Assembly (NCBI GenBank): GCA_005893305.1
Contig: VBOZ01000029.1
Span: 169,072-233,071 of the forward strand
Length of the DNA: 64,000 bases
Direction: 5' to 3'
DNA from: Candidatus Eiseniibacteriota bacterium
GTDB lineage: Bacteria; Eisenbacteria; RBG-16-71-46; SZUA-252
In this document: in pieces, positions 294 through 59,828 of the stretch
How positions within the stretch are numbered: position 1 is the stretch's first letter
Layout: each line of letters begins with the position of its first letter
Position numbers and translations under genes: made by a program
The notes under the pieces: generated by a model
Database searches by the model: none
Told to the model about the DNA's origin: nothing
The model's input: the letters and a program-made list of their open reading frames with translations, nothing else

Positions 294-2360
294 CTACTTC
301 GTAAGCGTCACCTTCAGCACCGCGGACTGCGCTCCGCCGGCGAGCACCTGATCCGTTCTCACGAAGTAGATTCCCGACGATGCCTGCTGGTTCTGGTCAT
401 TCGCGCCGTCCCAACGCACCTCATGGGTGCCCGCCGCCGTCATCTCACCCTGCTTCAGCGTCCGAACGAGGCGGCCGTCCATCGAGTAGACGCGGAGCGT
501 GACCGGCCCCTCGCTCTTCACGGTGTATGAGATCGCCGTCTCTGGGTTGAACGGATTCGGTGAGGCCGATGTCATGATCGGTGCCGAGCCTGTGCCGCCG
601 GTTCGGAGGGTGACCGACTTCACGCCTTGGAGCGGCGCGGTCCCCGACGTTGTCTGGACCTCCCCGGCGACGATGATGTTCACGGTGCTGTTATTCGGAG
701 CACCGCTGAGCAGGTCCCGGACACACGATGTGGCGAAGCTGATCTGGTAGTCGGGTACGCCGTTCAGATCCATGTCGCCGATGGTACCCGTGCCAACCCG
801 GGTGTCGGCGGCGCACTCGGTGACCGCGCCGGGGGTCGGGTAGTCGGTCTTCAGGCGGAGCGTAGCGGCGTGTATCGATGAGTACGGCATCATGGTCTCC
901 TCGATGGCAACCTTGGTGGATCCCCTTCCGGTCGAGACATCGAGGACGGTGCCGTTGTTCTTGAGGACGACCGCGACCGGGACATCGGATCGGACCGTTG
1001 CGGTCGTGGAGTCGTCATCGGAAAGGCCGCCCGCGTCGGCCACATGGAGCATCACCGGGAAGACCCCCTCGGCGGGGTATGCGTGCGCGGGGGTCGGGCC
1101 AGAGGCGGTCTTGCCGTCCCCGAAATCCCAAGTGAACGCAAGCGCATCGCCGTTCGGATCGGACGAGGCGGTACCGTTGAAGTCGATGGACTGAGTCGCG
1201 AGCCCTGCGTACGGTCCGCGGGCGTTTGCCTCCGGAGCGCGGTTTCCGACGTTCAGCAGTACCGCCACGGAATTGGATGACGGGAGCGTGACCACGAGGT
1301 CGAGCCGCGAGTCGCCGTTCAGATCCGCCGGCGCGATGAATCCCGGGGCACCTCCCGTCTCGTACACATACTGCGCGTCTCTCCGCCCGTCGCCGGCGCC
1401 GGTGAGGATTGCGACGCCGCCGCTGTCCGGCAACGTCGATAGATCCAACAGCCCGTCGCCGTTGAAGTCGCCCTTGCCGAGCACACCGGGCGCGAAGGGA
1501 GACCCCCAGTCGATCACATCTCCGAACGTTCCGTCGCCGTTGCCCAACAGCACCGACAGGATGTGGACGTCGAAAACGACCGTTGCAAGATCCGATTTTC
1601 GGTCCCCGTTCAAGTCGCCGACCGCGATGATGTCCGGATCCCCGCCGGAGGGCACGTGGTAGACGGGCGTATATCCGCCGTAGCCAAAGGTGCCGTCGCC
1701 GTTTCCAAACAGCACCGTGATCCCTCCACCCTTCGAAAACGCGATATCCGGCTTCGAGTCTCCGTTCAGGTCGGTCACGGCGACCGAATAAGCGACGCCC
1801 CAGCGATCGTCGTCCGTCCTTGGCGCGAAGGTGCCGTCCCCATTGCCGAGAAAGACGGACACGATGCCAAAACCCACCACGACGACGTCCGGCTTAGAGT
1901 CCGCGTTCAGATCGGCGATCGCGAAAAACGTGGATGGTCCCTGTGGATTTGCCGTGGGGAAGTCGGCCCTCTCGCGAAACGACCCGTCGCCGTTGCCGAG
2001 GAGAACCGAGACGGCGGCTTGACCCAAGGTCAGCACGTCCAAGATCCCGTCCTGGTTCATGTCACTGACGAGGACACGGAACGGCCCCGTCCCCGTTGCG
2101 TATTCCCTGTGCGGCTGGAAGGCCCCGGTCCCGTCGCCCAAGAGGACGGAGACGATGCCCGATCCCTCGTGTGCCGTGACGAGATCCAGAGCGCCGTCCC
2201 CGTTGAGGTCGCCTACCGCAGCGTCCCCGGGGCCGAGCGCCGTTTCGAACTGCGTCGGCGCTCCGAACGGCTGGCCCGAAGCTCCGCTCGGGGCGAGTTC
2301 GATCAGCGAAATGGAAAGGAGCAGAGCGGTGGGTAGAGAGGTCCGATAGATTCCATTCAT
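294..2360 (-). CDS. Secreted FG-GAP/VCBS-repeat protein with a PKD-like domain and a C-terminal FlgD-Ig-like/T9SS-type sorting domain
   Basis: 688-aa ORF with signal peptide MNGIYRTSLPTALLLSISLIELAPSGASG and at least seven DLNGD(G/S)xxDL FG-GAP repeats. The C-terminus reads NPFNPETAISYTV...LRVYSMDGRLVRTL...HEVRWDGANDQ...SGIYFVRTD. AGGAGG ribosome-binding site upstream. Confidence 0.85.
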   Translation of the reverse strand: MNGIYRTSLPTALLLSISLIELAPSGASGQPFGAPTQFETALGPGDAAVGDLNGDGALDLVTAHEGSGIVSVLLGDGTGAFQPHREYATGTGPFRVLVSDMNQDGILDVLTLGQAAVSVLLGNGDGSFRERADFPTANPQGPSTFFAIADLNADSKPDVVVVGFGIVSVFLGNGDGTFAPRTDDDRWGVAYSVAVTDLNGDSKPDIAFSKGGGITVLFGNGDGTFGYGGYTPVYHVPSGGDPDIIAVGDLNGDRKSDLATVVFDVHILSVLLGNGDGTFGDVIDWGSPFAPGVLGKGDFNGDGLLDLSTLPDSGGVAILTGAGDGRRDAQYVYETGGAPGFIAPADLNGDSRLDLVVTLPSSNSVAVLLNVGNRAPEANARGPYAGLATQSIDFNGTASSDPNGDALAFTWDFGDGKTASGPTPAHAYPAEGVFPVMLHVADAGGLSDDDSTTATVRSDVPVAVVLKNNGTVLDVSTGRGSTKVAIEETMMPYSSIHAATLRLKTDYPTPGAVTECAADTRVGTGTIGDMDLNGVPDYQISFATSCVRDLLSGAPNNSTVNIIVAGEVQTTSGTAPLQGVKSVTLRTGGTGSAPIMTSASPNPFNPETAISYTVKSEGPVTLRVYSMDGRLVRTLKQGEMTAAGTHEVRWDGANDQNQQASSGIYFVRTDQVLAGGAQSAVLKVTLTK

Positions 2361-2550: not shown

Positions 2551-4638
2551 TTATTTCGTAAGCGTTAGCTTCAGCACCGCGGACAGCTCCCTGTCGCCGA
2601 GCACCTGATCCGTCCTCACGAAGTAGATGCCCGACGAGACCGGCTCGCTCCGGTCGTTCGCGCCGTTCCACCACACTTCATGCGTGCCCGCCGTCGTCAT
2701 CTCTCCATGCTTCAGCGTCCGAATCAGGCGGCCGTCGATCGAGAAGATTCGCAGCGTAACCGGCCCCGCGCTGTTCACCGTGTACGAGATCGCCGTCTCC
2801 GGGTTGAACGGGTTCGGCGAGGCGGATGCGTGGATCGGCGCCGAGCTGTGGGCCGTGCGAACGGTGACCGTCTTCACGCCGCGGAGCGGCGCGGTGCCCG
2901 ACGAGGTCTCGACCTCTCCGGTGACGATGATGTTCGCCGTGGTGTTGTTCGGAGCCCCATCGAAGAGATCCCTGACACACGATTCGGCGAAGCTGATCAT
3001 GTAATCAGGTACACCATTCAGATTCATGTCGCCGAGAGTACTCGTGCCGGCCTTGATCTCGGCCGCGCACTCGGTGACGGTGCCGGGGGTAGGGTAGTCG
3101 GTCGTCAGGCGGAGTGAGGTGGCGACAATGGACGAGTAGGGGACCATGGCCTGCTCGACGGCCACCTTCGTGTATCCCCTCACCTTCCTGGCATCGAGGA
3201 CGGTTCCGTTGTTCTTGGCGATGATCGCGACCGGGACGTCGGATCGGACCGTGGCCGTCGTGGGGTCGTCGTCGGAGAGGCCGCCCGTGTCGGTGACCTG
3301 GAGGATTACCGGGAAGACGCCCTCCGCCGCGTAGGCATGCATGGGGGTCGGGCCCGTGGCCGTCCTGCCGTCTCCGAAGTCCCAGGCGTACGCCAGCGCG
3401 TCGCCGTCCGGGTCGGACGAGCCGGTACCGATGAACTCGATGCTCTGATTGACGAGCCCGGCGTACGGCCCTCGCGCGTTCGCCACCGGATAGCGGTTCC
3501 GAATGTTGAGCATTACGGCCACGGAATCGGCTCCTCGCAGGTTGGTGACAAGATCGAGCCGCCCGTCGCCGTCTAGATCTGCCGGCGCGGTGAACCCAGG
3601 AGGACCTCCCGCCGCGCACGCAACCTGGCCGTTTGTTCGGCCATCACCGGCCCCGAGGAAGACTTCGATGGCGTTCGGATTGGTGACCACAAGATCCAAG
3701 TGCCCGTCGCCGTTGAAGTCCCCCTTGGCAATATCATCTGTAGAGGATGACCCCCACTGGATGGGCTGCCCGAAACTACCGTCGCCATTGCCTAAGAGGG
3801 TAGCCATGACATCGATGTCGAAAACTCTCGTCGCCAGGTCCGTCTTACCGTCCCCGTTCAAGTCCCCGACCGCGATGATGTACGGTTCGCCGCCGGGGCG
3901 CGCAAGGGAGATTGCCGCGCCCCCGCAGCCCCGAAAGCTGCCGTCGCCATTCCCACACAACACAGTGACTCCACCGCCCTTCGGATACGCGAGGTCCTGA
4001 TTCGAGTCTCCGTTGAAATCAGCGACGGCGAGCGAATAAACCGGCCATCCCATATCGTTGTCCATCCTCGCGCCGAACGTGCCGTCTCCGTTTCCTAGGA
4101 AAATAGACAGGATGCCCCAGCCGGCCACGATGGCGTCCAGTTTTGAGTCGCCGTTTAGATCGGCTACCGCTAAGAGGAATGGCGATTGGCCGTAAACGCC
4201 CGCTCTCGTGGCGTAGTCGGTCCTTGGGCCGAACGACCCGTCCCCGTTGCCGAGGAGGACAGAGAGGGCCGAGCCGCTCAGAATCAGCAAGTCGAGCTTC
4301 CCGTCCTGGTTTAGATCACCCATCCGGAGCGAGCCGGTGACGCCCGTTGGATAGTCCACGTGCGCCCCGAAAGCCCCGTTTCCGGTGCCCAGGAGGACAG
4401 AGACGCTGTTCGCGTGCGACGTGACGAGATCCAGCGTACCGTCCCCATTGAGATCTCCCACCTCGACGTGGCTGGGTTGGGACCCTGTTGCGTAGTGCGC
4501 CGGCGCTGCGAACGGCTGGCCCGGCGCTCGGCTTGGAGAGAGTCCGATCAGGGAGACGGAGAAGAGCAGGATGGCGGATAGCGTGTGGTTCCTCGGCTCG
4601 CCCCCCGCAGGGCGGCGCCGATTGGAGAAACCGATCAT
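2551..4638 (-). CDS. Secreted FG-GAP/VCBS-repeat protein with a PKD-like domain and a C-terminal FlgD-Ig-like/T9SS-type sorting domain (tandem paralog)
   Basis: Full-length paralog of 294-2360, co-linear with it. The internal Met (MIGFSNRRR...) matches the paralog N-termini; the track ORF runs to 4725. Confidence 0.8.
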   Translation of the reverse strand: MIGFSNRRRPAGGEPRNHTLSAILLFSVSLIGLSPSRAPGQPFAAPAHYATGSQPSHVEVGDLNGDGTLDLVTSHANSVSVLLGTGNGAFGAHVDYPTGVTGSLRMGDLNQDGKLDLLILSGSALSVLLGNGDGSFGPRTDYATRAGVYGQSPFLLAVADLNGDSKLDAIVAGWGILSIFLGNGDGTFGARMDNDMGWPVYSLAVADFNGDSNQDLAYPKGGGVTVLCGNGDGSFRGCGGAAISLARPGGEPYIIAVGDLNGDGKTDLATRVFDIDVMATLLGNGDGSFGQPIQWGSSSTDDIAKGDFNGDGHLDLVVTNPNAIEVFLGAGDGRTNGQVACAAGGPPGFTAPADLDGDGRLDLVTNLRGADSVAVMLNIRNRYPVANARGPYAGLVNQSIEFIGTGSSDPDGDALAYAWDFGDGRTATGPTPMHAYAAEGVFPVILQVTDTGGLSDDDPTTATVRSDVPVAIIAKNNGTVLDARKVRGYTKVAVEQAMVPYSSIVATSLRLTTDYPTPGTVTECAAEIKAGTSTLGDMNLNGVPDYMISFAESCVRDLFDGAPNNTTANIIVTGEVETSSGTAPLRGVKTVTVRTAHSSAPIHASASPNPFNPETAISYTVNSAGPVTLRIFSIDGRLIRTLKHGEMTTAGTHEVWWNGANDRSEPVSSGIYFVRTDQVLGDRELSAVLKLTLTK

Positions 4639-4905: not shown

Positions 4906-6105
4906 TTGGAGATCATGGTGAAGTGGATACTCTCAGCCCTGCTTACGGTTGTCGCGGTCGCAGGCCTCACGCAAGCGGCGGATGCGCAGTACATGTACAT
5001 GGACGCGAACGGGAACGGGGTTCATGACACGGGCGATCGGCTGAACGCGAACAACGACTCGACCTTCGTGGATATCTACTTGAGCACGACGCTGAACCGC
5101 AACGGGAGCGCGGTCACCTGCAATACCCTGCCCGCTGCCGCGATGGACATCAACTCGTACGCCTTCAGCATCGTGGCGACCGGCGGCACCGTGACGTATG
5201 GGACCTACGTCAACCGGCAGCCGGCTGCGTTCCCGAACCACGCAGAGGTGCTGAACCCGGGGGACGGGACGTACAAGGACGCGTTCTACTCGTTCTCCTA
5301 TACGCCGGGGGGCCTATTTAGGCTTGGGACGTTGACGATCACCGGCACGAGCGGGGCTCCCGCGATCACATTTGTGGATTTGATCACTGGGGCCCAGGAC
5401 TATACGTCGTTCGGGACGGAGTGTCCTGGGATAGGCGGCGACAACACGTACCGGCTGGACGGGCCGAACACGCAGGCCTTCTACGGCGTCCCTGGGGACT
5501 GGTTCGACACCGACGGCCTCGCCCGGAGCACGACCGCGGTCTCCGTCGCGCTCCAGGACGCGCAGGCCGAGGCAGGGCTTGTTCGCCTTCGCTGGATCGT
5601 CCCGGACGCGCGGAGCTCGGTCTCGATGGTGGAGCGGCGTACCGCGATCAGCGATTGGGCGACTCTGGGGCAGGCCGACGTGGAGAGCGGCGGCTATGTC
5701 CGTTACGAGGACCGGTCGGTGACCCCGGGCGAGCGCTACGCGTACCGGCTCTTCGTCCAGTCTCCGACGGACAATGGGTATTCGAACGAGGTATGGGTCT
5801 TGGTGCCCTCGGACGCGGCTGCTCCGCTCGCATTGCAGCTCGACCCCGTCTACCCGAATCCGTTCCAAACCGAGACCCGGTTCAACTTCGCGGTTCCTCG
5901 GTCCGGATCCGTCCGGCTGACCATATTCGACGTGCGCGGACGACGGGTCGCGACGGTTGTGGAGCGCGCGTTGCCCTCGGGTTGGCGCTCCGTGGCATGG
6001 AATGGCAGGGACCACTTGGGCAGGCCCGTTCCGTCGGGCACGTACTTCGCCAAGCTGGAACAGGCCGGAAAAGTCCAGATGCGGAAGATCGTCGTCGCGA
6101 GGTAA
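4906..6105 (+). CDS. Secreted hypothetical protein with a fibronectin-III-like segment and a C-terminal FlgD-Ig-like/T9SS-type sorting domain
   Basis: Signal peptide MEIMVKWILSALLTVVAVAGLTQAADA. C-terminus reads DPVYPNPFQTETRFNFAVP..VRLTIFDVRGRRVATV...WNGRDHLGRPVPSGTYFAKL. Confidence 0.75.
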   Translation: MEIMVKWILSALLTVVAVAGLTQAADAQYMYMDANGNGVHDTGDRLNANNDSTFVDIYLSTTLNRNGSAVTCNTLPAAAMDINSYAFSIVATGGTVTYGTYVNRQPAAFPNHAEVLNPGDGTYKDAFYSFSYTPGGLFRLGTLTITGTSGAPAITFVDLITGAQDYTSFGTECPGIGGDNTYRLDGPNTQAFYGVPGDWFDTDGLARSTTAVSVALQDAQAEAGLVRLRWIVPDARSSVSMVERRTAISDWATLGQADVESGGYVRYEDRSVTPGERYAYRLFVQSPTDNGYSNEVWVLVPSDAAAPLALQLDPVYPNPFQTETRFNFAVPRSGSVRLTIFDVRGRRVATVVERALPSGWRSVAWNGRDHLGRPVPSGTYFAKLEQAGKVQMRKIVVAR

Positions 6106-6900: not shown

Positions 6901-6909
6901 GACTGGCTC

Positions 6910-7752: not shown

Positions 7753-7843
7753 TGTGTGTCTCCTTTCATCACCTGGCGATTCGGCCGCCAACCGCTCCTC
7801 GTCCCCATACGGAAGGAAGTATCGCCACGGGGAGAAGGAGCCG

Positions 7844-7882
7844 CCATTCGATGGATTGCGGACTTGAGGATGAAAAACTACG
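7844..7882 (-). promoter_or_regulatory. Copy (b) of the conserved intergenic element (CCATTCGATGGATTGCGGACTTGAGGATGAAAAACTACGG) between B' and A
   Basis: About 95-130 nt upstream of the A start codon. The downstream ATACTTCCTTCCGTATGG also matches the sequence around the TPR gene start codon (ATACTTCCTTACGTATGG). Confidence 0.5.
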
Positions 7883-9002: not shown

Positions 9003-9017
9003 ACGGGTTCCTGGACG

Positions 9018-43677: not shown

Positions 43678-46600
43678 ATGATCCGGGCAGCGCCGGTCGT
43701 CGTCGCGTCTTTCGCGGCCGTGATCGGGCTTTCGACGTCCGCCTGGGCGCTCCCGCCGCGGCCGGCGCGGCAGGCTCCCGACGCGGGCCGCGCGGCTCCG
43801 TTCGCCCCGTCGCTCCTCCCGTCCACTTCCGGCTCGCCCGTCGACTGCGTCATCGTGGCTCCCGACTCCATGGCCGACATCTACCAGCGGTTGGCCGACT
43901 ACCAGACTCGGACCGGTCGGGCCACCGTGGTCCGCGGTCTCTCGACGATCCGCGCGCTCGATCCCAGGTCGAACGATCTCGCGCAGGCGGTCCGGAGCTT
44001 CCTTCGATCCGCGTACGAGCTCTGGGGGATACGCTGGGCGATCCTGGCCGGGGATCACGAGGCGATTCCGCTCCGGGTCGTCCGGGTCCTGTCGCCCTCC
44101 CCGGAGGACATTCCGAGCGACGCGTACTACGCCGATCTCGACGGGACGTGGGACGGGAACGGGAACGGAGTCTACGGGGAAGTCGCGGACAGCCTCGACA
44201 TGGTCTCGGACATCGCGGTGGGGAGGCTGTCGGCCAACACGCGCGCCGAGGCCACCATCATGGTGAACCGCGCGCTGCGCTACGCCACCGGGGTCTCGAC
44301 GGCCTCCGTCGGCCAGAACCTTCTCCTGGCGGAGGTCCTCTTTCCCTCGGATTGGCAGCCGGGGCAGTTCATCTCGAGCGACGGCGCCCAGCAGGCGCAG
44401 ATGCTGCTCCCCCGCACGCCGGGCTGCGTCGCCTCGGACCGCTACTACGAGAACTACACCGCCTACCCTGGCTCCTTGCCCTTCACCAAGTCGAACGCGA
44501 TGAGCGCGATCGGCCAGGGCTACCACGTCGTGGCGCACTACGGTCACGGCTCCCGGTCCCAGCTTTCCTTCGGGAACGCGATCATCACCGCGCCGGAGCT
44601 CGCGTCGATCCCGACGGGGGAGTCGACCGCGCTCTGGATCGCGAACAACTGCGCGTCCGCGGCGGTCGACTTCGACTGTGTCGCGGAGCGGATGGTGCGG
44701 TCTCCGAACGGGGGAACCCTGGCGTACGTCGGTGCGACGAGGGATGCGTGGCCCGAGAACACGGCGCCGATCGCGAACGCGATTTTCGACCGGCTGTTCG
44801 GATCCTCCCCGATTCCTCTTGGGGACGCGATCGAAGGCGCGCGCGCGACGATGCTGCCGTCGGGCCGGTCCGAGACCCTTGCCCGCTGGGGCTACTTCGA
44901 GACCATCCTCCTCGGCGTCCCCTCGCTCGACATCTGGAAGTGCCCTCCCGTACCGCTCACGGTGACCCGGCCCAGCTCCGTTCCGATCGGCGCGGGCGGG
45001 TTCGCGGTGACGGTGCAGAAAAGCGGCGCCCCGGTCGAGTCGGCGCTCGTCGTCGCCTGGAAGGCGGGGGAGGACTACCGGGCGGTCTACACGAACGCTT
45101 CCGGGCAGGCGACCGTGCCGTTCCACCCCGCGTCGACCGGATCGTTTTCGCTCGCGGTGACGTCGAGAGGATGCGTTCCCTCCCTCGACTCGCTCACGGT
45201 GTCGGCTTCGGCCCCGGCGCTCTACGTCTTCCTGGGCGCGGCAGCGCGGGACGATCTGGGCGGGGACGCGGACGGAACCGTCGGCGCCGGCGAGCAGTTC
45301 GGGATCGGCGGCTCGATCCGGAACGCCGGCGGAAGCGCGGGGGCGGGGACCCTGCAGGTCACGATGCAGGCGCTCACGGCGGGAGTCGCCGTCAACGTTT
45401 CAAGCGGCGTCGCGCCGTCCCTGGCGGCCGGGGCCCAGACCGCGATTCCCTCGACCCTGAGAGCGCACGCGCTCGCCACGCCCCTGAGCGAGCGCTCCGA
45501 ACGGCTCCGCATCATCGTCGGGGACGGCGTCCGCTCCGATACCACGCAGATCGCGCTCGCCGTCGGAGCGCCCGCGCCGCTTCTCGCCGCGAATGTGTTC
45601 AGCGACGCCGGAGCGGGAGGCAACGGGAACGGCGTCCTCGATCCGGGGGAGACCGCATCGCTTGCGTACACCGTGGGAAACGACGGCGGCGCGCGCGCGC
45701 GGAGCGTGACGGTCCAGGTCTTGAACCCGGCTTCCGGGGTCACGCTCATCGACACGAACGCGACCCTGGGCGACGTGGCCGCGGGCGCCACCGCCACGAC
45801 GCCCGCGCTCCGATTCTCGGTCACCGCCGTTCCCTCAGGACGCCTCTACGACCTCAAGCTTCAAGATACGTACGGGCATTCGTGGACCTTCCCGATCGAG
45901 CGCTCGGCGCCGGGGCAGCCCGCCGCGCCGAACGTCGAAGCCTCGAGCATCAACCGGATCACGATCGGGTGGAGCCCGGTCGGGGCGACCGACCTTCTCG
46001 GGTATCGGGTCTATCGCGGTCCGAACGACGCCAGCACGCCGCAGCCGTTGATGTCGATTCCCGTGCGCCGGATTCCCAGCTACGAGGACGCGGGGCTTTT
46101 GACCTTGACCTCGTACCGCTACCAGGTGAGCGCGGTCGACTCGAGCGGCAACGAGGGGCCGCGCTCTCCCATCCTCCTCGCGAGCACGACCCCGCCGTCC
46201 CTCACCGGGTGGCCCGTCCCGATGGGACAATCGACCTCCTCGTCGGTCTGCCTCGCCGACCTGGACGGGGACCATCGGCCCGAGGTCATCGTCGGCGCGG
46301 AGTACCTCTACGTCCTGCGTCCCGACGGCACCGATTGGCTCGACGGAGATCAAAACGCGATCACGACCGGCATCTTCAGCACCGCGCTCCACTACATCCC
46401 GTCCTCTCCGACCGCCGCCGACCTCGATTTCGACGGAACTCCGGAGATCATCGCGGCGTCCTGGGACGACTCCACGGTCGGTGTGTGGAAGTCGAACGGA
46501 ACGATGATGCCCGGGTGGCCGCGGAAGGGAGCGGCGCCGTTCTGGTCGGTCCCCGCGGTCGGCGAAATCGACGGGGATCCAGGCATGGAAATCGTGGTCG

Positions 46601-47805
46601 GCTCCAACTCGTCCCGGCTCTACGCCTGGAACTCGGACGGCACCGAGGTTCTGGACGGCGACCAGAATCCGTCCACCCAAGGCGTCTACTACGTTCCGCT
46701 CGGAACCACGATCTCCTCGCCCGCGATCGCGGACATCGACAAGGACGGCGTGCGCGAGGTCGTCTTCGGGACCTCGGCGGGGCGGGTCTACGCGCTCCGC
46801 TACGGGGTCCCGCTCGCGGGATGGCCCTTTGTCGCGACGGGTCTCATGAGCTCCTCGCCGGCGATCGGGGACATCGTCCCCGGCGGCGGCCTCGAGATCG
46901 CGATGGCTTCCTCGAACGACAGCGTCTACGTCCTGACCTCATCGGGAACGCGCGCCCCAGGCTGGCCGCGCCCGCTGGAGCTGACGACCGGAAACGGCCG
47001 CACGCCGTCCCCCGCCCTGGCGCCGCTTCGAAAGCACCTCGGAGATCCCTCGCTCTGCGTGATCATCTGCGGGGCGGACGGAAAGCTGACCGCGTTCGAT
47101 CCGGCCGGGAACACGCTCCCCGGTTGGAGCTCGGTCCAGCTGGGCGCGAACGCCGCCACGGAGGCGTCGCCCGCCGTCGCCGATATCGACGGCGACGGCG
47201 CGCTCGAGGTGCTGATCGCAGCGGAGGACCGCCGCCTCTACGCCTTCCGATTCGACGGGACCCCGGTGAGCGGATTTCCGATCGAAACGGGAGCCGAGCT
47301 GCGCGGGACGCCAGCGGTTTGGGACCTGGACGGTGACGGCGCGTGCGATATCGTCGTCGCGGGCTGGGACCGAAACATTTACGCATGGCGCTATCCGGGC
47401 ACCTTCAACCAGGGCGGGATGGCGTGGCCGATGTTCCATCACGACAACTGGCGCACCGGCCTCGCGACGTTCCCGATTCTCACCGCGGTGGACACGGAGC
47501 CGGCCGCCGCGGCCCCTCCGGCCCGCCCGTCCCTCGCGCAGAATCGCCCCAACCCCTTCAATCCGGTGACGGTGATCGGCTATTCGGTCGCCGCGGCGGG
47601 ACCGGAGGAGGTCCGCCTGCGCGTCTTCACGATCGCCGGGCGCCTCGTGCGGACTCTGGTTTCGCGGCGCGTCGAACCCGGCTATCATGAGGCCCGCTGG
47701 GACGGCCGCGACGACCACGGCCTCCCGGCCGCATCGGGGGTCTATTTGTACCGGGCCGATATCGGCCGGACCGCGTTGACGCGGAAGATGACCCTGCTGC
47801 GATAG
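43678..47805 (+). CDS. Giant secreted multidomain protein: N-terminal C25 (gingipain-like) cysteine-peptidase domain, Ig-like/CARDB and FN3 domains, FG-GAP/VCBS repeats, and a C-terminal FlgD-Ig-like/T9SS-type sorting domain
   Basis: C25 hallmarks YYADLDGTWDGNGNGVYGE, HYGHGS (His) and ANNCASA (Cys). At least six FG-GAP repeats (ADLDGDHRPEVIVGA etc.). C-terminus reads NRPNPFNPVTVIGYSV...RLRVFTIAGRLVRTL...WDGRDDHGLPAASGVYLYRAD. Confidence 0.8.
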   Translation: MIRAAPVVVASFAAVIGLSTSAWALPPRPARQAPDAGRAAPFAPSLLPSTSGSPVDCVIVAPDSMADIYQRLADYQTRTGRATVVRGLSTIRALDPRSNDLAQAVRSFLRSAYELWGIRWAILAGDHEAIPLRVVRVLSPSPEDIPSDAYYADLDGTWDGNGNGVYGEVADSLDMVSDIAVGRLSANTRAEATIMVNRALRYATGVSTASVGQNLLLAEVLFPSDWQPGQFISSDGAQQAQMLLPRTPGCVASDRYYENYTAYPGSLPFTKSNAMSAIGQGYHVVAHYGHGSRSQLSFGNAIITAPELASIPTGESTALWIANNCASAAVDFDCVAERMVRSPNGGTLAYVGATRDAWPENTAPIANAIFDRLFGSSPIPLGDAIEGARATMLPSGRSETLARWGYFETILLGVPSLDIWKCPPVPLTVTRPSSVPIGAGGFAVTVQKSGAPVESALVVAWKAGEDYRAVYTNASGQATVPFHPASTGSFSLAVTSRGCVPSLDSLTVSASAPALYVFLGAAARDDLGGDADGTVGAGEQFGIGGSIRNAGGSAGAGTLQVTMQALTAGVAVNVSSGVAPSLAAGAQTAIPSTLRAHALATPLSERSERLRIIVGDGVRSDTTQIALAVGAPAPLLAANVFSDAGAGGNGNGVLDPGETASLAYTVGNDGGARARSVTVQVLNPASGVTLIDTNATLGDVAAGATATTPALRFSVTAVPSGRLYDLKLQDTYGHSWTFPIERSAPGQPAAPNVEASSINRITIGWSPVGATDLLGYRVYRGPNDASTPQPLMSIPVRRIPSYEDAGLLTLTSYRYQVSAVDSSGNEGPRSPILLASTTPPSLTGWPVPMGQSTSSSVCLADLDGDHRPEVIVGAEYLYVLRPDGTDWLDGDQNAITTGIFSTALHYIPSSPTAADLDFDGTPEIIAASWDDSTVGVWKSNGTMMPGWPRKGAAPFWSVPAVGEIDGDPGMEIVVGSNSSRLYAWNSDGTEVLDGDQNPSTQGVYYVPLGTTISSPAIADIDKDGVREVVFGTSAGRVYALRYGVPLAGWPFVATGLMSSSPAIGDIVPGGGLEIAMASSNDSVYVLTSSGTRAPGWPRPLELTTGNGRTPSPALAPLRKHLGDPSLCVIICGADGKLTAFDPAGNTLPGWSSVQLGANAATEASPAVADIDGDGALEVLIAAEDRRLYAFRFDGTPVSGFPIETGAELRGTPAVWDLDGDGACDIVVAGWDRNIYAWRYPGTFNQGGMAWPMFHHDNWRTGLATFPILTAVDTEPAAAAPPARPSLAQNRPNPFNPVTVIGYSVAAAGPEEVRLRVFTIAGRLVRTLVSRRVEPGYHEARWDGRDDHGLPAASGVYLYRADIGRTALTRKMTLLR

Positions 47806-49307: not shown

Positions 49308-49310
49308 CGG

Positions 49311-50669: not shown

Positions 50670-53486
50670 ATGAGGCCGGCCCTCGCCGTGCTCGCGGCCG
50701 CCGGGGTCGCGACGATCGCGATCCTCCTCCTCCTCAGACCGTCGTCCCTCCGCTCCTCGACGACCGCGACCAGCGACTACGCGAACTTCGAGGCGCTCCA
50801 GGTCCATCCGCTGGCCATAACGCCCGACCGGACCCGGCTCCTCGCCGTGAACACGCCCGATGCCCGGCTCGAGGTGCTCACGATCGGTGCCCACACCCTG
50901 AGCCGGCTCGGCGAGATCCCGGTGGGATTGGAGCCCGTTTCGGTCTCGGCGTTCAACGACAGCATCGCCTGGGTGGTCGACAACGTCTCCGATGCGGTGA
51001 GCATCGTGAATCTACGGACCTTCAGCGTGGAGAACACGCTCACGGTCGGGGACGAGCCGACCGACGTGGTCTTCGCCGGGAGTCCAAAGCGGGCCTTCGT
51101 CTGCGTCAGCGGCGAGGACGCCGTGAAGCTCTACGATCTCGTGGATCCGCTCGCGCCGACGCTCGCCGCGAACCAGACGATCCAGGGCACGCACCCGCGC
51201 GCCCTGGCCGCGTGGGGCAACGAGGTCTACGTCGGCGTGCTGGACGCCGGGAACCGGACGAGTGTCGTGAGCGCGAGCCTCGTGCGGGCCGGCGGCGGCC
51301 CGCCGCCGCCGAGCCCGCCGCGCAAGCTGACCTCCTCCGCGCCCGACGTCGCCCTCATCGTGCAGCAGGTCGGAAGCGATTGGGTGGACGAGCGCGCCGC
51401 CTCCCAGAAGACCTGGAACTCGGTCATCCCCTACACCCTGCCCGACCGCGACGTGCAGGTCCTCGACGCGAGCTCGGGGGCGCCGGTCCGAACGGTCTCC
51501 GACGTAGGCACCAACCTCTTCAACCTCGCCGTGGCGCCCGGGAGCGGAAACGTCTACGTCACGAACACCGAGGCCTTCAACCGCACGCGCTTCGAGCCGA
51601 ACTTAAGGGGACGGTTCGCGCAGAATCGGATTTCGCGGATCCGACCCGGGCAGACACTCCCGTCCGACGTCTGGCACCTGAACAGCCACATCGTCTACGA
51701 CACGATTCCGGGCCCGTCGTTCGAGAGGGACCTGAGCCTCTCCCAGCCGATCGACATCGCGGTGAACGCTGCCGAGACGCGCGTCTACGTGGCCGCGCTC
51801 GGGTCGGACAGGGTGGGGGTCTTCGATCTCTCGCAGGGAACGGTGGTGAACCGGATTCCGTCCTCGCTCGCCCCGCTGCCGAAGCGCGGGGGCCCGACCG
51901 GATTGGCGCTGGACGAGGCCAGGGCGCAGCTTTTCGTGCTCAACCGATTCGCCAACTCGGTCTCGATCGTGGACCTCGGCACGGAGAACATCGTCGGGGA
52001 GACGTTCTTTCGTTTCTATCCGACTCCCCGGGAGGTGTTCGAGGGACGGCGGTTCCTCTACGACGCGACGCTCTCGGGCCACGGCGATCTCGCCTGCTCC
52101 TCCTGTCACATCGCGAGCAACTTCGACAACATCGCCTGGGATCTCGGTGACCCGCAGGGCGATCCCATCCCGGTGCCGCCGGGGCAGTCGCCGTTCCTAC
52201 CGCCGTTCGATCCGATGAAGGGCCCGATGACGACGCAGTCGCTGCGCGGGCTGAGCGGAACGGGGAACCTGCACTGGCGGGCCGACCGTGAGAACTTCCT
52301 CGCCTTCAACCCCGCCTTCGTGAAGCTGATGGGGAATGATGCTCAGCTCTCGACCACCGACATGCAGAGGTACAACGACTTCATCATGACGGTGGTCTAC
52401 CCCCCGAACCCGAATCAGAATCTGGACCGGACGTGGCCGGACCCGGCGGCGCCAACTCCGAGTCCGACGCGCGGGAAGATCGAGTTCGACACGAACAACC
52501 ACGACGGGGGCACCTGCGCCGCGTGCCACGCCTTCCCGGCCGGCACGAACGGGACGATCATCCCGGGGCCGCTGCTTCAAGAGAGCCAGGGGATGAAGGT
52601 GCCGCAGCTGCGGAACGCGTACGCCAAGACCGGCTTTACCAACGCGGCCGGCCCCCAGAAACGGGGCTTCGGCTACATTCACGACGGCTCGATCGACAAC
52701 CTGATCACGTTTCTGCACCTCCCGGTGTTCAATTTCCAGAACGAGCAGCAGCGGCGCGACCTCGCGTCGTTCATCCTCTCGTTCGACACCGGGATGGCCC
52801 CATCGGTCGGCCGGCAGCTCACGATCAGCGCCTCGACCAAGAATCTGGCCTCAACGACGTCGCTGCTCGACTCGCTCTACCTTGAGGCCGACATCGGCAA
52901 CTGCGACCTGGTGGCGCACGGGTACATCGACGGCCAGAATCGCGGCTACCGATACACCGGCGCCCGCAAGTTCGAGAGCGATTACAACCCGGAGGGCGTC
53001 CTTGACGCCGATCTCCTCCGCGGGCTCCCCGACGCTCCCGGCGAGGCGATCACCTATCTCGGCGTGCCGCCGGGCTCGGGCGTGCGGATGGGGATCGATC
53101 GCGACCGGGACGGGTACCGCGACCGCTACGAGATCGCGCTCGGGTCCGATCCCGCCGATGCGAGCTCGGTCCCGTCGGTGAGCGCGATCACGATGCCTCC
53201 GACCGCTCCGATCGCGCGGCTGTCGCAGAACGCGCCGAATCCGTTCAATCCATCGACGGTGATCGCCTATGATGTGGCCCACGCGGGCACGGTGAAGCTC
53301 CACGTGTTCGACGCGGCCGGGCGGCTCGTGCGAACCCTCGTCGACGCCAACGTGCCCGCGGGGCGGCATACCGTGCGCTGGGACGGCGCGGATGATCAAG
53401 GCCGACCGGCCGCGAGCGGGCGCTACTACTACCGGCTCCGCGTCGGGCCGAAGGTCCTGACGAGGGACATGACCCTCATCAAGTAG
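50670..53486 (+). CDS. Secreted fusion of a YVTN-type beta-propeller, a di-haem cytochrome c peroxidase/MauG-like domain, and a C-terminal FlgD-Ig-like/T9SS-type sorting domain
   Basis: Two CxxCH motifs (CSSCH, CAACH). CCP-family motifs VPQLRN and GYIHDGS. Propeller repeats in the N-terminal ~450 aa. C-terminus reads NAPNPFNPSTVIAYDV...LHVFDAAGRLVRTL...WDGADDQGRPAASGRYYYRL. Confidence 0.8.
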   Translation: MRPALAVLAAAGVATIAILLLLRPSSLRSSTTATSDYANFEALQVHPLAITPDRTRLLAVNTPDARLEVLTIGAHTLSRLGEIPVGLEPVSVSAFNDSIAWVVDNVSDAVSIVNLRTFSVENTLTVGDEPTDVVFAGSPKRAFVCVSGEDAVKLYDLVDPLAPTLAANQTIQGTHPRALAAWGNEVYVGVLDAGNRTSVVSASLVRAGGGPPPPSPPRKLTSSAPDVALIVQQVGSDWVDERAASQKTWNSVIPYTLPDRDVQVLDASSGAPVRTVSDVGTNLFNLAVAPGSGNVYVTNTEAFNRTRFEPNLRGRFAQNRISRIRPGQTLPSDVWHLNSHIVYDTIPGPSFERDLSLSQPIDIAVNAAETRVYVAALGSDRVGVFDLSQGTVVNRIPSSLAPLPKRGGPTGLALDEARAQLFVLNRFANSVSIVDLGTENIVGETFFRFYPTPREVFEGRRFLYDATLSGHGDLACSSCHIASNFDNIAWDLGDPQGDPIPVPPGQSPFLPPFDPMKGPMTTQSLRGLSGTGNLHWRADRENFLAFNPAFVKLMGNDAQLSTTDMQRYNDFIMTVVYPPNPNQNLDRTWPDPAAPTPSPTRGKIEFDTNNHDGGTCAACHAFPAGTNGTIIPGPLLQESQGMKVPQLRNAYAKTGFTNAAGPQKRGFGYIHDGSIDNLITFLHLPVFNFQNEQQRRDLASFILSFDTGMAPSVGRQLTISASTKNLASTTSLLDSLYLEADIGNCDLVAHGYIDGQNRGYRYTGARKFESDYNPEGVLDADLLRGLPDAPGEAITYLGVPPGSGVRMGIDRDRDGYRDRYEIALGSDPADASSVPSVSAITMPPTAPIARLSQNAPNPFNPSTVIAYDVAHAGTVKLHVFDAAGRLVRTLVDANVPAGRHTVRWDGADDQGRPAASGRYYYRLRVGPKVLTRDMTLIK

Positions 53487-57269: not shown

Positions 57270-59828
57270 ATGACATCCTCTTCGGTTCGACGGTCGCGCC
57301 CGCTCCGGCACGCGCTCCTTGCGGGGTGCCTCCTCGCCGCCACAGCCCCGGCCGCCGACGCCCTGCCCGAGGTCGTCGCGACGAGGGGTCTTCCGTCCTC
57401 GATCTCGTCCACCTACGGCACCGCCGTTCCGCTCGGGGATCCATCCACAGCGGGGCTCTTCGCGATCTCCACGCGATGGGGCGTCGAGATCCGCGATGCC
57501 GTGTCGGGCGCGGAGGCGCCGGTCGGCGCGTTCCGCACCTCGGGCGCCGTGAACGCGGTGGCCGCGGACGGGAACACGCTCTACCTCTTCGCGGGAACGC
57601 GGGGCATCGTGGCGGTGGACGTCACCGATCCCGCGAATCCAGCGGCGATCGGATCGCGCGGCGACCTGGGCGATCTGAAGCTCGGCGCGGCCTCTCCGAA
57701 CGGTTATGGGCTCGCGGCCGCGAACGCCTCCGAGCTCCACTTCCTCGGCCGCTCCTCGCCCGGCGCGCTCTCCTTGCTCGCGACGCTTCGATACGCGGAC
57801 GACCGTATCGTCCGCGCGATCGTCGCTCGGTCGGATTCCTTCCTCGTGGTGAGCGAGAGATCTACGCCGCTTCAGCGCCTCTTCCTCACGCTCTACCGGC
57901 TGCCGGCCGGCGCCGCGCAGCCCCAATTCGTGAGCGAGATCCCGGTTCCGAACCAGGCTCCGACGGGGATGGTCTGGCGCGGGGATCTCGCGTTCATCGG
58001 CGCGGGGAGTCTCGGCATACTCACGGCGAACGTGCGTACGGGCGTCGTGACCGGTCCGGCCGGCATCGGGAAATACGTCCGTGAAGTCGACGCGAACGAC
58101 TCGGTCGTCGTCGCCGCGGCGCAGGCCGGAACGTTCGTCCGCTTAAGGCGAAGCGGCTCCGGGGGCGCTACCCTCATCAACCCGACCTTCGAGTCGCTTC
58201 CGCTCGAGCCGATCCACATCGCGCTCTCGGGGAGCCGCGTCGCGATCTCGGTGCAGGACGTCGACTCGGCGCAGGACCCGGACGAGGTCGGACGCGGCGC
58301 GATCGAATTCCGGGATCTGGACCTGACGCTCGCGATCCCCGCGGTGGGTGGGACCGGGCGGACCCGCCGCGTCGCCTGGAGCGCCGGCCTCGCGTACGTC
58401 GCCGACTATACGGGCGGCCTCCGCATCTACCGCGCGGACGGATCCGACACCAGCCTCGTCGGGGTCCTCCCGCTCGGATCGAGCACCCGCGTCGTGGACA
58501 TCGCCCTCGATCCTCCGCGGCACCGGGCCTACCTGGCGGCCGGCAGCCAGGGGCTCCAGATCGTGGACACCACGGATCCGTCGGCACCCGCGCTCCTCTC
58601 CGCGCTCCCGCTCCCGGGCCTGGCGAGCGCGGTGGCGGTCGTCGATTCCGACCTCGTCGTGGTGGGCCGGCGCGGAACGGTCGGGGCCGGACTCACCTTC
58701 GTTGACGTCACCTCTCCGGCCTCTCCCGCGCCGCGCGGCCAGCTGGGAAGCGGCTCCATTCCCGATCCCCGCGCCATCGCGGTCAAGGACACGATCGCGT
58801 TCGTGGCGGACGAATCGCTCGGCTTGCTCGCGGTGCGTTTCGGCAACCCCGATGCTCCTGGCTTGGTCGGGACGCCCACCGGCACCGCCGCGCGCGACCT
58901 CGATCTCTCAGGCAACGTGCTCCTGGTCGCGACGGGCGCCGCCGGGCTCCAAGTGGTCAACGTTTCCAATCCCGTGATTCCGGTCCTCCAATCTCAGGTG
59001 GCGACACCCGCTCTCCTGGGGGTGGCGCGGTCGGCCAACTCCGCCGCTCTCTTCCTGGGAGACGAGGGGGCGCTTGTCGTCGACCTGAACAATCCTTCCG
59101 CCCCCGTGCTCCGCGGACCGATCGGAGTTCCGGGTGCGTCGCGCGACGGGATCTGGGTGGGCGACACGCTCCTGGTCGCGACCGGCTTCGCCCTGGAGCG
59201 TTTCCGCGTGAGCCCCGCGCCGACCGTGGTGCCCGCGCTCACGATCGAGTTCGATCGCGCGCTCCTCCTTCCTCGCGCCAGGATCCGATGGACGCCCGTG
59301 TCGCTCCCCGGCATGGTGGGGCTCAACGTCTATCGCGACCTGCTGCCGGGCCGGCAAGGCACGTCGCCCGCGGGGACGCTCGTGAACAAATCGCTGTTGA
59401 GCCCGGGCGCGACGGAGGCGGTCGACGACTCGCTCGTGGCGGGGACGACCTGCCGCTACAGGCTCGAGGCGTTCTTCGCGGACGGAAGCGCGATCAAAGT
59501 GGCCGAGGGCTCGATCTTCGTTCCGTCCAATTCCGCGGTGGGACGTCCGTTCCCGAATCCCTACCGGCCGAATGGCGGCGCCGCGCTCACGCTGCCGTTT
59601 CGGATCGCTCCGGGCTCACCCGCGGGGACCGTCGAGGTAACCATCCACGATGCTTCCGGCAGGCTCGTCCGCCGGTCGGTTCAGGCCGTCGGGGCGGGAG
59701 GCGGATTCGGGACTGCGGCGTGGGACGGCCGCGACGGGCGAGGCCGCAAGGCGCCGGACGGCGTCTACTTCGCGCGAGTGCGGGGACCGGGGATCGACGA
59801 TGCACGCCAGTTCGTCCTCTTACATTAA
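57270..59828 (+). CDS. Secreted LVIVD-repeat beta-propeller protein with a C-terminal FlgD-Ig-like/T9SS-type sorting domain
   Basis: Signal peptide after MTSSSVRRSRPLRHALLAGCLLAATAPAADA. Repeated (A)YVA...GL.IVD units. C-terminus reads FPNPYRP...VEVTIHDASGRLVRRS...WDGRDGRGRKAPDGVYFARV. Confidence 0.7.
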   Translation: MTSSSVRRSRPLRHALLAGCLLAATAPAADALPEVVATRGLPSSISSTYGTAVPLGDPSTAGLFAISTRWGVEIRDAVSGAEAPVGAFRTSGAVNAVAADGNTLYLFAGTRGIVAVDVTDPANPAAIGSRGDLGDLKLGAASPNGYGLAAANASELHFLGRSSPGALSLLATLRYADDRIVRAIVARSDSFLVVSERSTPLQRLFLTLYRLPAGAAQPQFVSEIPVPNQAPTGMVWRGDLAFIGAGSLGILTANVRTGVVTGPAGIGKYVREVDANDSVVVAAAQAGTFVRLRRSGSGGATLINPTFESLPLEPIHIALSGSRVAISVQDVDSAQDPDEVGRGAIEFRDLDLTLAIPAVGGTGRTRRVAWSAGLAYVADYTGGLRIYRADGSDTSLVGVLPLGSSTRVVDIALDPPRHRAYLAAGSQGLQIVDTTDPSAPALLSALPLPGLASAVAVVDSDLVVVGRRGTVGAGLTFVDVTSPASPAPRGQLGSGSIPDPRAIAVKDTIAFVADESLGLLAVRFGNPDAPGLVGTPTGTAARDLDLSGNVLLVATGAAGLQVVNVSNPVIPVLQSQVATPALLGVARSANSAALFLGDEGALVVDLNNPSAPVLRGPIGVPGASRDGIWVGDTLLVATGFALERFRVSPAPTVVPALTIEFDRALLLPRARIRWTPVSLPGMVGLNVYRDLLPGRQGTSPAGTLVNKSLLSPGATEAVDDSLVAGTTCRYRLEAFFADGSAIKVAEGSIFVPSNSAVGRPFPNPYRPNGGAALTLPFRIAPGSPAGTVEVTIHDASGRLVRRSVQAVGAGGGFGTAAWDGRDGRGRKAPDGVYFARVRGPGIDDARQFVLLH

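What the first reader, a model, noticed from the sequence alone, without database searches (positions are those of the whole stretch)
294..59828. Six proteins in one window share a C-terminal FlgD-Ig-like/T9SS-type sorting domain, on very different passenger domains
The domain (consensus about NPFNP.T.I.Y.V...V.L.VFD..GRLVRTL......G.H.V.WDG.D..G...SG.YF.R) closes six proteins. These are the two complete FG-GAP paralogs (294-2360 and 2551-4638), the secreted hypothetical protein at 4906-6105, the giant C25 peptidase at 43678-47805, the beta-propeller/di-haem peroxidase at 50670-53486, and the LVIVD-repeat protein at 57270-59828. This points to a dedicated secretion or surface-anchoring pathway with a large substrate repertoire: T9SS-like, or the FlgD-like domain family abundant in Gemmatimonadota, Eisenbacteria and FCB-group bacteria. 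No secretion-machinery gene is visible in this window.
Basis: partly seen in the sequence, partly recalled or inferred. Interest (0 to 1): 0.5.

Follow-up and report, generated by a model that had tools for sequence, protein, structure and literature searches.

The report
Six proteins share a T9SS-type tail
Six otherwise unrelated secreted proteins of an uncultured soil bacterium (Candidatus Eisenbacteria) all end in the same small beta-sandwich domain, a common and already catalogued domain that most likely serves as an export and surface-sorting tag, so the finding is real but ordinary.

Summary
Exactly six ORFs in the window end, right at the stop codon, in one homologous domain of about 93 aa. 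All six have N-terminal signal peptides. Their passenger parts fall into five unrelated architectures.

The domain lies in the overlap between Pfam FlgD_ig (five of six pass the cut-off) and the T9SS type A sorting domain TIGR04183 (two of six pass, two fall just below). Most of its nearest database relatives carry both Pfam labels. NCBI names them "T9SS type A sorting domain-containing protein" or "FlgD immunoglobulin-like domain containing protein".

The model is a seven-stranded Ig-like sandwich. Its best structural matches include the C-terminal domains (CTDs) of PorU, mirolase and PorZ, but the fold is generic.

The organism is Candidatus Eisenbacteria. The CTD is kept at the exact C-terminus in orthologues from about 20 Eisenbacteria genomes.

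No T9SS machinery gene lies in the window. A separate Eisenbacteria protein family is a clear PorU (T9SS sortase) homologue. The core T9SS genes could not be searched for.

Verdict: a new member of a known kind. The T9SS-like sorting function is probable (about 0.6) but inferred. Interest is low to moderate.

The parts
294..2360 (-). Protein A: signal peptide, FG-GAP repeats, PKD domain, C-terminal sorting-type domain (CTD at 297-584)
   Evidence: Pfam FG-GAP_3 149 bits, PKD_4 77 bits, FlgD_ig 37.1 bits. TIGR04183 26.6 bits, above the cut-off of 23. The CTD ends at the stop codon.
2551..4638 (-). Protein B: paralogue of A (63-64% identity), same architecture (CTD at 2554-2841)
   Evidence: Pfam FG-GAP_3 150.5 bits, PKD_4 75.1 bits, FlgD_ig 25.0 bits, just below the gathering score of 27. 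TIGR04183 22.5 bits, just below 23. A-versus-B identity. Start at 4638 with a signal peptide.
4906..6105 (+). Protein C: secreted protein with an unknown passenger (about 300 aa) and a CTD at 5824-6102. The likely start is the ATG at 4915.
   Evidence: FlgD_ig 33.7 bits, Por_Secre_tail 26.3 bits over the full model 1-75. TIGR04183 37.5 bits over model positions 1-71 of 72.
43678..47805 (+). Protein D: signal peptide, C25 cysteine peptidase, fn3, FG-GAP beta-propeller region, CTD at 47521-47802. It is a conserved core gene of Eisenbacteria.
   Evidence: Peptidase_C25 172.8 bits, FlgD_ig 31.6 bits. The catalytic His (HYGHGS) and Cys (NNCAS) align with gingipain R. Full-length orthologues at 59-74% identity in about 20 MAGs, in conserved synteny. 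PorU model NF033707 scores only 84.8 bits against a cut-off of 420.
50670..53486 (+). Protein E: signal peptide, beta-propeller region, two CxxCH haem motifs, TSP3-like repeat, CTD at 53205-53483
   Evidence: FlgD_ig 47.6 bits; weak YNCE and CCP_MauG hits. TIGR04183 19.6 bits. CxxCH at residues 476 and 616. Orthologues at 57-75% identity keep the CTD.
57270..59828 (+). Protein F: signal peptide, LVIVD-repeat protein, most divergent CTD at 59547-59825, with an insertion after the first strand
   Evidence: LVIVD 64.8 bits, FlgD_ig 39.4 bits. No TIGR04183 hit at E<=0.01. Leave-one-out profile 47.9 bits. Orthologues at 46-50% identity keep the CTD.
1..207 (-). N-terminus of a third FG-GAP paralogue in tandem with A and B. 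Its C-terminus lies outside the window.
   Evidence: The translation MNRTPLPTVLLISISLIGLIPSGALGQPFGAPAQYATGSQPSHVEVGDLNGDG... matches the N-termini of A and B.

Best explanation
The six proteins are Sec-exported cargo that carry a folded, seven-stranded Ig-like C-terminal domain. This domain belongs to the FlgD_ig-like branch of the T9SS type A sorting-domain family.

Inferred mechanism:
1. Each protein crosses the inner membrane using its N-terminal signal peptide and folds in the periplasm.
2. A T9SS-like outer-membrane translocon recognises the CTD. The parts recognised are its last beta-strand at the free C-terminus and the [VI]-[FYH]-x-x-x-G-R-[LR]-[VI] loop between strands 3 and 4.
3. 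The protein is moved across the outer membrane.
4. A PorU-type C25 sortase cuts off the CTD in the Ala/Pro/Ser-rich linker upstream of the PNPF strand. The passenger is then released or attached to the cell surface.

Shown here: the homology, the fold, the terminal position, the conservation, and the existence of a PorU homologue in the phylum.

Inferred: the translocon, the cleavage and the attachment.
For: 1. Position and signal peptides. The domain sits exactly at the C-terminus of six signal-peptide proteins with five unrelated passenger architectures.

2. T9SS models align from the first position.
- TIGR04183 covers C at model positions 1-71 of 72 with 37.5 bits, and A with 26.6 bits. Both are above the cut-off of 23. 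B (22.5) and E (19.6) fall just below.
- The tails of A, B, C and E also match the CTD part of the PorU model NF033707, around positions 1000-1078.

3. PDB sequence matches. The profile of the six matches:
- the P. gingivalis PorU CTD over profile positions 12-93, at residues 1061-1152 of 1156 (E 1.7e-4);
- the PorZ CTD (E 2.3e-4);
- RgpB CTD entries (5hfs, E 9.3e-4).
FlgD matches only the core, positions 27-83.

4. Terminal versus internal copies. Among the proteins retrieved, terminal copies cover profile positions 4-96. Internal repeat copies cover 12-83, and only 2.8% of them reach position 92. Terminal copies therefore carry an extra last strand. PMC11285876 shows that the C-terminal motif and the beta3-beta4 loop with its conserved Gly are needed for T9SS function.

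5. Loop motif. The loop is IYDFTGRLV in PorU. In the six tails it reads VFDAAGRLV, VYSMDGRLV, IFSIDGRLI, IFDVRGRRV, VFTIAGRLV and IHDASGRLV, and the GR pair is invariant.

7. Database relatives. Of the 120 nearest, 84 carry both PF18962 and PF13860. NCBI names such proteins from Eisenbacteria, Krumholzibacteria, Zixibacteria and Bacteroidetes 'T9SS type A sorting domain-containing protein'.

8. Conservation. The CTD ends at the stop codon in every D, E and F orthologue in the Eisenbacteria loci held.

9. PorU homologue. Eisenbacteria encode a family of about 1400-aa proteins (P0107 and 73 further hits at E<=1e-8, the ~1400-aa members 41-71% identical to it).
- It matches the PorU model over positions 8-539 with 190 bits.
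- Its best PDB match is PorU, for both the peptidase and the CTD, in the same order (E 2.7e-13).
Against: - Four of the six tails are below the TIGR04183 cut-off, and none passes PF18962.
- The strongest sequence match in the PDB is flagellar FlgD, at E 8.5e-9.
- FlgD shares the same GR loop motif, so that motif does not separate the two families.
- The same profile matches internal tandem arrays of up to 23 copies.
- No T9SS core gene was seen in the window or in the roughly 460 kb of related loci held through, most of them from Eisenbacteria MAGs. L027 and L028, fetched afterwards, showed none either.
- The PorU-like family is below NCBIfam's PorU cut-off (190 against 420 bits), and I did not show it in the same genome as the window.
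- A 2016 survey found T9SS only in Bacteroidetes (PMC4793230).
- No paper in the library links Eisenbacteria to T9SS.
Confidence: 0.6

Rival explanations
1. The domain is only a structural Ig-like module of the FlgD_ig superfamily, such as a spacer, adhesion or glycan-binding domain. It happens to be the last domain of these proteins and has no role in sorting.
For: - PF13860 is the best-scoring curated model for five of the six tails.
- FlgD is the best PDB sequence match.
- The profile hits 413,240 cluster representatives, and the top hits have many internal copies.
Against: - The domain is never internal in the window. It ends exactly at the stop codon in six proteins and in all orthologues examined.
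- It sits on five unrelated passengers.
- Terminal copies have a last strand that internal copies and FlgD lack.
- The PNPF first strand and the full length align with the T9SS models and with the PorU and PorZ CTDs.
Confidence: 0.15
2. The domain is a sorting signal, but for a lineage-specific pathway that is not a canonical T9SS. Examples would be a reduced or different outer-membrane translocon, or surface attachment by a C25 sortase without the PorK/L/M/N motor and ring.
For: - Four of the six tails are below the T9SS CTD cut-offs.
- The Eisenbacteria PorU-like family is divergent: 190 against 420 bits, and its CTD-like domain is followed by a conserved GRLVKLR[KR]PR motif and a tail.
- Its neighbours are SurA-like and cyclophilin-type prolyl isomerases, not PorV.
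- No T9SS core gene was seen in any held locus.
- The 2016 survey found T9SS only in Bacteroidetes.
Against: - T9SS genes are normally scattered, so their absence from about 0.5 Mb of selected loci says little.
- A review states that T9SS may occur in other FCB phyla (PMC11285876).
- The CTD and the PorU homologue are both homologous to the canonical parts.
Confidence: 0.15
3. Protein D, the C25 peptidase in the window, is itself the enzyme that removes the CTD, acting as an analogue of PorU. On this reading the window does hold a machinery gene.
For: - D has an intact C25 His/Cys pair.
- It carries a CTD, as PorU does.
- It is about as conserved as transketolase across Eisenbacteria: 59-74% against 66-78% identity.
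- It keeps a fixed position between a membrane glycosyltransferase and gltX plus a GT4 glycosyltransferase.
Against: - D matches the PorU model only over the C25 core (84.8 bits), with no PorU-specific N-terminal region.
- Its best C25-domain match in the PDB is gingipain R, not PorU; three designed FG-GAP-like 'Cake' repeat proteins score better or similarly over the propeller region.
- A separate Eisenbacteria family, P0107, is a far better PorU homologue.
- Gingipain-like C25 peptidases are classic T9SS cargo (own knowledge).
Confidence: 0.08

Closest known systems
T9SS type A C-terminal sorting domain (TIGR04183 / Pfam PF18962 Por_Secre_tail), e.g. the CTDs of P. gingivalis RgpB, PorU and PorZ and of T. 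forsythia mirolase
   Same: - About 90 aa, at the extreme C-terminus of signal-peptide proteins with diverse passengers.
- Seven-stranded Ig-like sandwich.
- PNP-type first strand.
- Conserved Gly in the beta3-beta4 loop.
- Terminal strand ending in a basic residue.
- Aligns with the models from the first position.
- NCBI gives close relatives this name.
   Different: - Only 2 of 6 tails pass the TIGR04183 cut-off, and 0 of 6 pass PF18962.
- The tails contain the FlgD-like stretch G-x-H-x-V-x-W-D-G-x-D-x-x-G.
- The host is Eisenbacteria, where no T9SS has been described.
- Secretion and cleavage are untested.
FlgD Ig-like domain (Pfam PF13860), the Ig insertion of the flagellar hook-cap protein FlgD
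   Same: It is the best curated Pfam match (25-47.6 bits) and the best PDB sequence match (E 8.5e-9). The shared core motifs are DxxGRxVRTL, WDGxDxxG and GxY.
   Different: - FlgD matches only the core, profile positions 27-83.
- It lacks the PNPF first strand and the terminal strand.
- In FlgD the domain is inserted inside a tudor-like domain (Pfam description, from my own knowledge). Here the domain is terminal, on non-flagellar passengers.
- No flagellar genes lie nearby.
PorU, the T9SS C-terminal signal peptidase/sortase (NF033707; PDB 6ZA2)
   Same: Protein D has a C25 peptidase domain with the catalytic pair and a CTD. The Eisenbacteria family P0107 matches PorU in the same domain order, in both the peptidase and the CTD.
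   Different: - D scores 84.8 bits against a cut-off of 420 and lacks the PorU N-terminal region, so D is not a PorU.
- P0107 is not encoded in this window and is also below the cut-off (190 bits).
C-terminal Ig/fn3-like domains of Gram-positive surface proteases (Bacillus Vpr, streptococcal C5a peptidase)
   Different: Sequence identity is about 10% for Vpr. These proteins come from organisms without an outer membrane, and their domains have no sorting role that I know of (own knowledge).

Membership tests
T9SS type A sorting domain (TIGR04183 / PF18962) | Scores at or above the curated cut-off of the family model | tested here: inconclusive
   TIGR04183 (cut-off 23): C 37.5 and A 26.6 pass. 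B 22.5 and E 19.6 fall just below. D and F give no hit at E<=0.01. PF18962 (gathering score 27): C 26.3 and A 17.5; none passes.
T9SS type A sorting domain (TIGR04183 / PF18962) | Located at the extreme C-terminus of a protein with an N-terminal Sec signal peptide | tested here: met
   All six domains end at the stop codon. All six N-termini are hydrophobic and signal-like on reading. No signal-peptide predictor was available. The position is the same in all orthologues.
T9SS type A sorting domain (TIGR04183 / PF18962) | Compact seven-stranded Ig-like beta-sandwich resembling solved CTDs | tested here: met
T9SS type A sorting domain (TIGR04183 / PF18962) | Conserved beta3-beta4 loop with its Gly, and a C-terminal strand motif (PMC11285876) | tested here: met
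   The GR pair is invariant in the six tails and aligns with PorU IYDFTGRLV. The terminal strand is present in terminal copies only. The loop motif is also present in FlgD, so it is not specific.
T9SS type A sorting domain (TIGR04183 / PF18962) | Host genome encodes the T9SS core (SprA/Sov, PorV, PorK/L/M/N, PorU) | not testable with these tools
   There is no machinery gene in the window. A PorU homologue family exists in Eisenbacteria.
T9SS type A sorting domain (TIGR04183 / PF18962) | The CTD is required for secretion and is removed by PorU | not testable with these tools
   This needs experiments.
FlgD_ig (PF13860) | Scores at or above the Pfam gathering score of 27 | tested here: met
   E 47.6, F 39.4, A 37.1, C 33.7 and D 31.6 pass. 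B scores 25.0, just below.
Flagellar hook-cap protein FlgD | Full FlgD architecture (N-terminal FlgD region, tudor-like domain with the Ig insertion) and a flagellar gene context | tested here: not met
   NCBIfam FlgD equivalog models score 16-33 bits against cut-offs of 230-383, over the Ig part only. The passengers are FG-GAP, C25, LVIVD and similar domains. There are no flagellar genes in the window.
PorU sortase (NF033707), tested for protein D | Full-length match to the PorU model, including the PorU-specific N-terminal region | tested here: not met
   D scores 84.8 bits against a cut-off of 420. The best stretch is residues 147-398 against model positions 475-715, which is the C25 core only. 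Its best C25-domain match in the PDB is gingipain R, with no PorU hit.

The most novel reading that the evidence does not exclude
Eisenbacteria, and probably the related candidate phyla whose cargo carries the FlgD_ig-flavoured CTD, may run a divergent T9SS-like sorting pathway.

Its sortase would be the P0107-type PorU homologue. That protein has a non-terminal CTD followed by a conserved basic GRLVKLR[KR]PR tail, and it is encoded beside periplasmic prolyl isomerases.

Protein D would act as a second, lineage-specific processing or attachment enzyme. It is a universally conserved C25 plus FG-GAP protein wedged between glycosyltransferases.

This would be a variant of T9SS outside Bacteroidota with its own signal subtype.
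Probability: 0.12. Interest if true: 0.6.

Novelty: new member of a known kind. Interest (0 to 1): 0.3.

Why it matters
These six proteins are probably surface or extracellular proteins of a soil phylum known only from metagenomes. They include a conserved C25 protease, a di-haem propeller protein, an LVIVD protein and FG-GAP/PKD proteins.

The work also gives sequence-level evidence that Eisenbacteria have at least the cargo signal and a sortase homologue of a T9SS-like system. I found no paper in the searchable library that links the two. Reviews only say that T9SS "may" exist in other FCB phyla.

The practical point for annotation is that 'FlgD' labels on such proteins are misleading. JGI, for example, names them 'flagellar hook capping protein FlgD'.

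Beyond that, the domain is extremely common (more than 400,000 cluster representatives) and already named by NCBI, so the finding itself is not surprising.

Tried and rejected
1. T9SS machinery in the window. Pfam and NCBIfam scans of about 45 ORFs gave only a sub-threshold PorG-like hit on a generic 8-strand barrel (E 0.0026) and the C25 core of D.

2. D as PorU. Rejected: 84.8 against 420 bits and no PorU N-terminal region.

3. The outer-membrane protein at 61939-63258 as a PorV candidate.
- No PorV hit in Pfam or NCBIfam; only a weak PopA-family match.
- No PDB sequence hit.
- The single-sequence AlphaFold model was unusable, with pLDDT 30.8.
- Left undecided, but there is no support for it.

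4. Neighbours of the Eisenbacteria PorU-like gene as T9SS parts.
- The HEAT-cyclophilin protein and the TPR protein hit only generic cyclophilins and TPR proteins, not the PPI or SprE of the F. johnsoniae translocon.
- No T9SS Pfam family appears in the flanks of L022, L025, L027 or L028.

5. Reaching Bacteroidota PorU and PorV from P0107. The word-indexed search returned only Eisenbacteria-type relatives.

6. An exact-match look-up of the window's gltX, to find the source contig, returned nothing.

7. Literature.
- No paper holds Eisenbacteria together with T9SS or 'type IX'.
- No paper pairs 'FlgD Ig-like' with secretion.
- The one paper that cites PF13860 is an Ig-like-fold adhesin survey of Vibrio parahaemolyticus, unrelated by title and abstract.
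- Papers that mention Eisenbacteria together with secretion systems do so in unrelated contexts.

8. Fold comparison as a discriminator between FlgD and the T9SS CTD. It does not discriminate, because both are among many Ig-like hits.
Full report
**Observation**

Each ends in a closely similar stretch: PNPFNP..T.I.Y.V, then V.L.VFD..GRLVRTL, then G.H.V.WDG.D..G...SG.YF.R, then K.TL.K.

- An HMM of the six tails, run against every six-frame ORF of the window, finds these six and nothing else: 101-137 bits, against 6 bits for the next best. In every case the domain ends at the stop codon.
- Leave-one-out profiles still score each tail at 48-113 bits, against 7 bits or less for 200 shuffles.
- The independent Pfam model PF13860 hits all six.
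- The passengers are FG-GAP plus PKD (A and B, 63% identical), unknown (C), C25 peptidase plus fn3 plus FG-GAP (D), a propeller with two CxxCH motifs (E) and LVIVD repeats (F). They are otherwise unrelated.
- The N-terminus of a third FG-GAP paralogue lies at 1-207 on the minus strand.

**What the domain is, by sequence**

- Pfam FlgD_ig (PF13860, gathering score 27): 25.0-47.6 bits; five of six pass.
- Pfam Por_Secre_tail (PF18962, gathering score 27): 26.3 bits for C over the whole model and 17.5 for A; none passes.
- NCBIfam TIGR04183, the T9SS type A sorting domain (cut-off 23): C 37.5 (model positions 1-71 of 72) and A 26.6 pass. B 22.5 and E 19.6 fall just below. D and F give no hit.
- The tails of A, B, C and E also match the CTD end of the PorU model.

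A profile of the six (alignment A1) was searched against PDB sequences. It hits FlgD best (E 8.5e-9), but only over the core, profile positions 27-83. It hits three T9SS CTD sets:

- PorU: E 1.7e-4, profile positions 12-93, at residues 1061-1152 of 1156.
- PorZ: E 2.3e-4.
- RgpB CTD entries: 5hfs at E 9.3e-4.

The PorU and PorZ matches are the ones that span nearly the whole domain; the RgpB match covers only profile positions 31-53.

An alignment shows that the PNP strand, the GR loop and the WD/G-Y strand are in the same order as in the PorU CTD. FlgD lacks the first and last strands.

The nearest database relatives tell the same story. There are 4,986 hits at E<=1e-10 among the 8,000 candidates scored. 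Of the best 120, 84 carry both PF18962 and PF13860 on the same stretch. NCBI names such proteins 'T9SS type A sorting domain-containing protein' (Eisenbacteria, Krumholzibacteria, Zixibacteria, Bacteroidetes) or 'FlgD immunoglobulin-like domain containing protein' (Eisenbacteria). The domain therefore lies in the overlap of the two models and is already catalogued.

**What the domain is, by structure**

The AlphaFold model of the tail of E, built with the six-sequence alignment, has pLDDT 82.5. It shows a disordered linker followed by seven strands. This matches the 3+4 sandwich described for T9SS CTDs in PMC11285876.

- Foldseek finds FlgD, C5a peptidase, PorZ, PorU (the highest query TM-score, 0.66) and the NucA CTD bound to the translocon.

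The fold is consistent with a T9SS CTD but does not discriminate.

**How common it is, and terminal versus internal copies**

The profile matches 413,240 of 1.84 billion cluster representatives at E<=0.001, and 237,176 at E<=1e-10. The top scorers hold up to 23 internal copies. At superfamily level, then, this is also a generic repeat module.

Among the retrieved proteins, copies that end within 5 residues of the C-terminus cover profile positions 4-96 (median), and 72% reach position 92. Internal copies cover 12-83, and only 2.8% reach position 92. Terminal copies are thus a distinct subtype with an extra last strand.

PMC11285876 reports that the C-terminal motif and the beta3-beta4 loop with its conserved Gly are what the P. 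gingivalis T9SS needs. The loop is IYDFTGRLV in PorU and [VI][FYH]xxxGR[LR][VI] in all six tails, with G and R invariant. FlgD has the same loop, so only the terminal strand and the PNPF strand argue specifically for the sorting-domain reading.

**Organism and conservation**

D has full-length orthologues (59-74% identity) in 20 genome loci, most of them labelled Candidatus Eisenbacteria; a twenty-first locus matched only weakly. A 99% identical JGI protein also exists.

The gene order is conserved: aconitase, VTT, M48, transketolase, membrane glycosyltransferase, D, gltX, GT4, E (where present), M16, VTT, F, GWxTD. D is about as conserved as transketolase.

In all these loci the D, E and F orthologues keep the domain, full length, ending at the stop codon.

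NCBI taxonomy lists the phylum among the candidate phyla. Its placement in the FCB group is from my own knowledge.

**Machinery**

No T9SS component was found in the window by Pfam or NCBIfam.

D is not PorU. It scores 84.8 against 420 bits, over the C25 core only, and its best C25-domain match in the PDB is gingipain R. It does keep the catalytic His and Cys.

A different Eisenbacteria family is a clear PorU homologue: P0107, about 1400 aa, with 73 further hits at E<=1e-8, the ~1400-aa members 41-71% identical to it.

- It matches the PorU model over positions 8-539 with 190 bits.
- Its best PDB hit is P. gingivalis PorU (E 2.7e-13), for the peptidase and the CTD in the same order.
- Its CTD-like domain is followed by a conserved GRLVKLR[KR]PR motif and a short tail.
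- Its neighbours are SurA-like and cyclophilin-type isomerases. No T9SS core family was seen there.

I could not scan a whole Eisenbacteria genome, so the presence of SprA, PorV and PorK/L/M/N is untested.

The literature gives mixed background. A 2016 survey found T9SS only in Bacteroidetes. A 2024 paper says it may exist in other FCB phyla. No paper in the library links it to Eisenbacteria.

**Conclusion**

The best-supported reading (about 0.6) is that these are Sec-exported cargo proteins. Their terminal Ig-like domain would be the recognition signal for a T9SS-like outer-membrane export and attachment route, and a PorU-type sortase would remove it.

The rivals are:

- a purely structural Ig module (about 0.15);
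- a sorting signal for a non-canonical pathway (about 0.15);
- D itself as the sortase (about 0.08).

The finding is real. The domain is very common and already named, so this is a new member of a known kind, with low to moderate interest.

Noticed in passing
window 1-207 (-): N-terminus of a third FG-GAP paralogue in tandem with A and B. The family is therefore at least a triple tandem array that runs off the window.
   Followed up: partly
window 6136-9917 (-): Four consecutive ORFs (254, 361, 319 and 299 aa) with no Pfam or NCBIfam hit and no obvious signal peptide. They form two alternating paralogue pairs: 6136/8043 at 36% identity and 6910/9018 at 51% identity. They lie next to a Bac_transf sugar transferase at 9901-10644. 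Function unknown.
   Followed up: partly
window 41829-43544 (+), 47857-50576 (+): D is flanked by a multi-pass membrane glycosyltransferase-like protein (weak LA_3751/LA_3752-family hit) on one side and by gltX plus a GT4 glycosyltransferase on the other. This arrangement is conserved in about 20 Eisenbacteria loci. In L022, the PorU-like gene of another Eisenbacteria lineage also sits next to a PMT_2 membrane glycosyltransferase.
   Followed up: partly
window 59650-61167 (+) and 61939-63258 (+): A GWxTD-domain protein (TIGR04514, 111.8 bits) is followed by a 439-aa signal-peptide protein that ends in Phe. It looks like an outer-membrane beta-barrel, but its only hit is a weak PopA-family match. 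The single-sequence structure prediction failed.
   Followed up: partly
window 11510-15421 (-): A LuxR-type response regulator, a HisKA_3 histidine kinase, a SpoIIE-type phosphatase and a STAS-domain protein lie together. This looks like a partner-switching regulatory module.
   Followed up: no
L022 881-2424; L028 3271-6587: Tandem arrays of small secreted proteins (about 240 aa) with no family hit, all ending in a conserved TWGQ[VI]KSLYR C-terminus. They lie upstream of the PorU-like gene in two Eisenbacteria lineages. This may be another C-terminal signal.
   Followed up: no
L022-L025, L028 (P0107 family): The Eisenbacteria PorU-like proteins carry a CTD-like domain that is not terminal. It is followed by a conserved GRLVKLR[KR]PR motif and a variable tail of roughly 10-20 aa.
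   Followed up: partly
and record titles: Several contigs with the same conserved gene order are labelled Bacteroidota, Binatia, Omnitrophota, Limnocylindrales or Hyphomicrobiales. These are probably mis-binned or mislabelled Eisenbacteria contigs.
   Followed up: no
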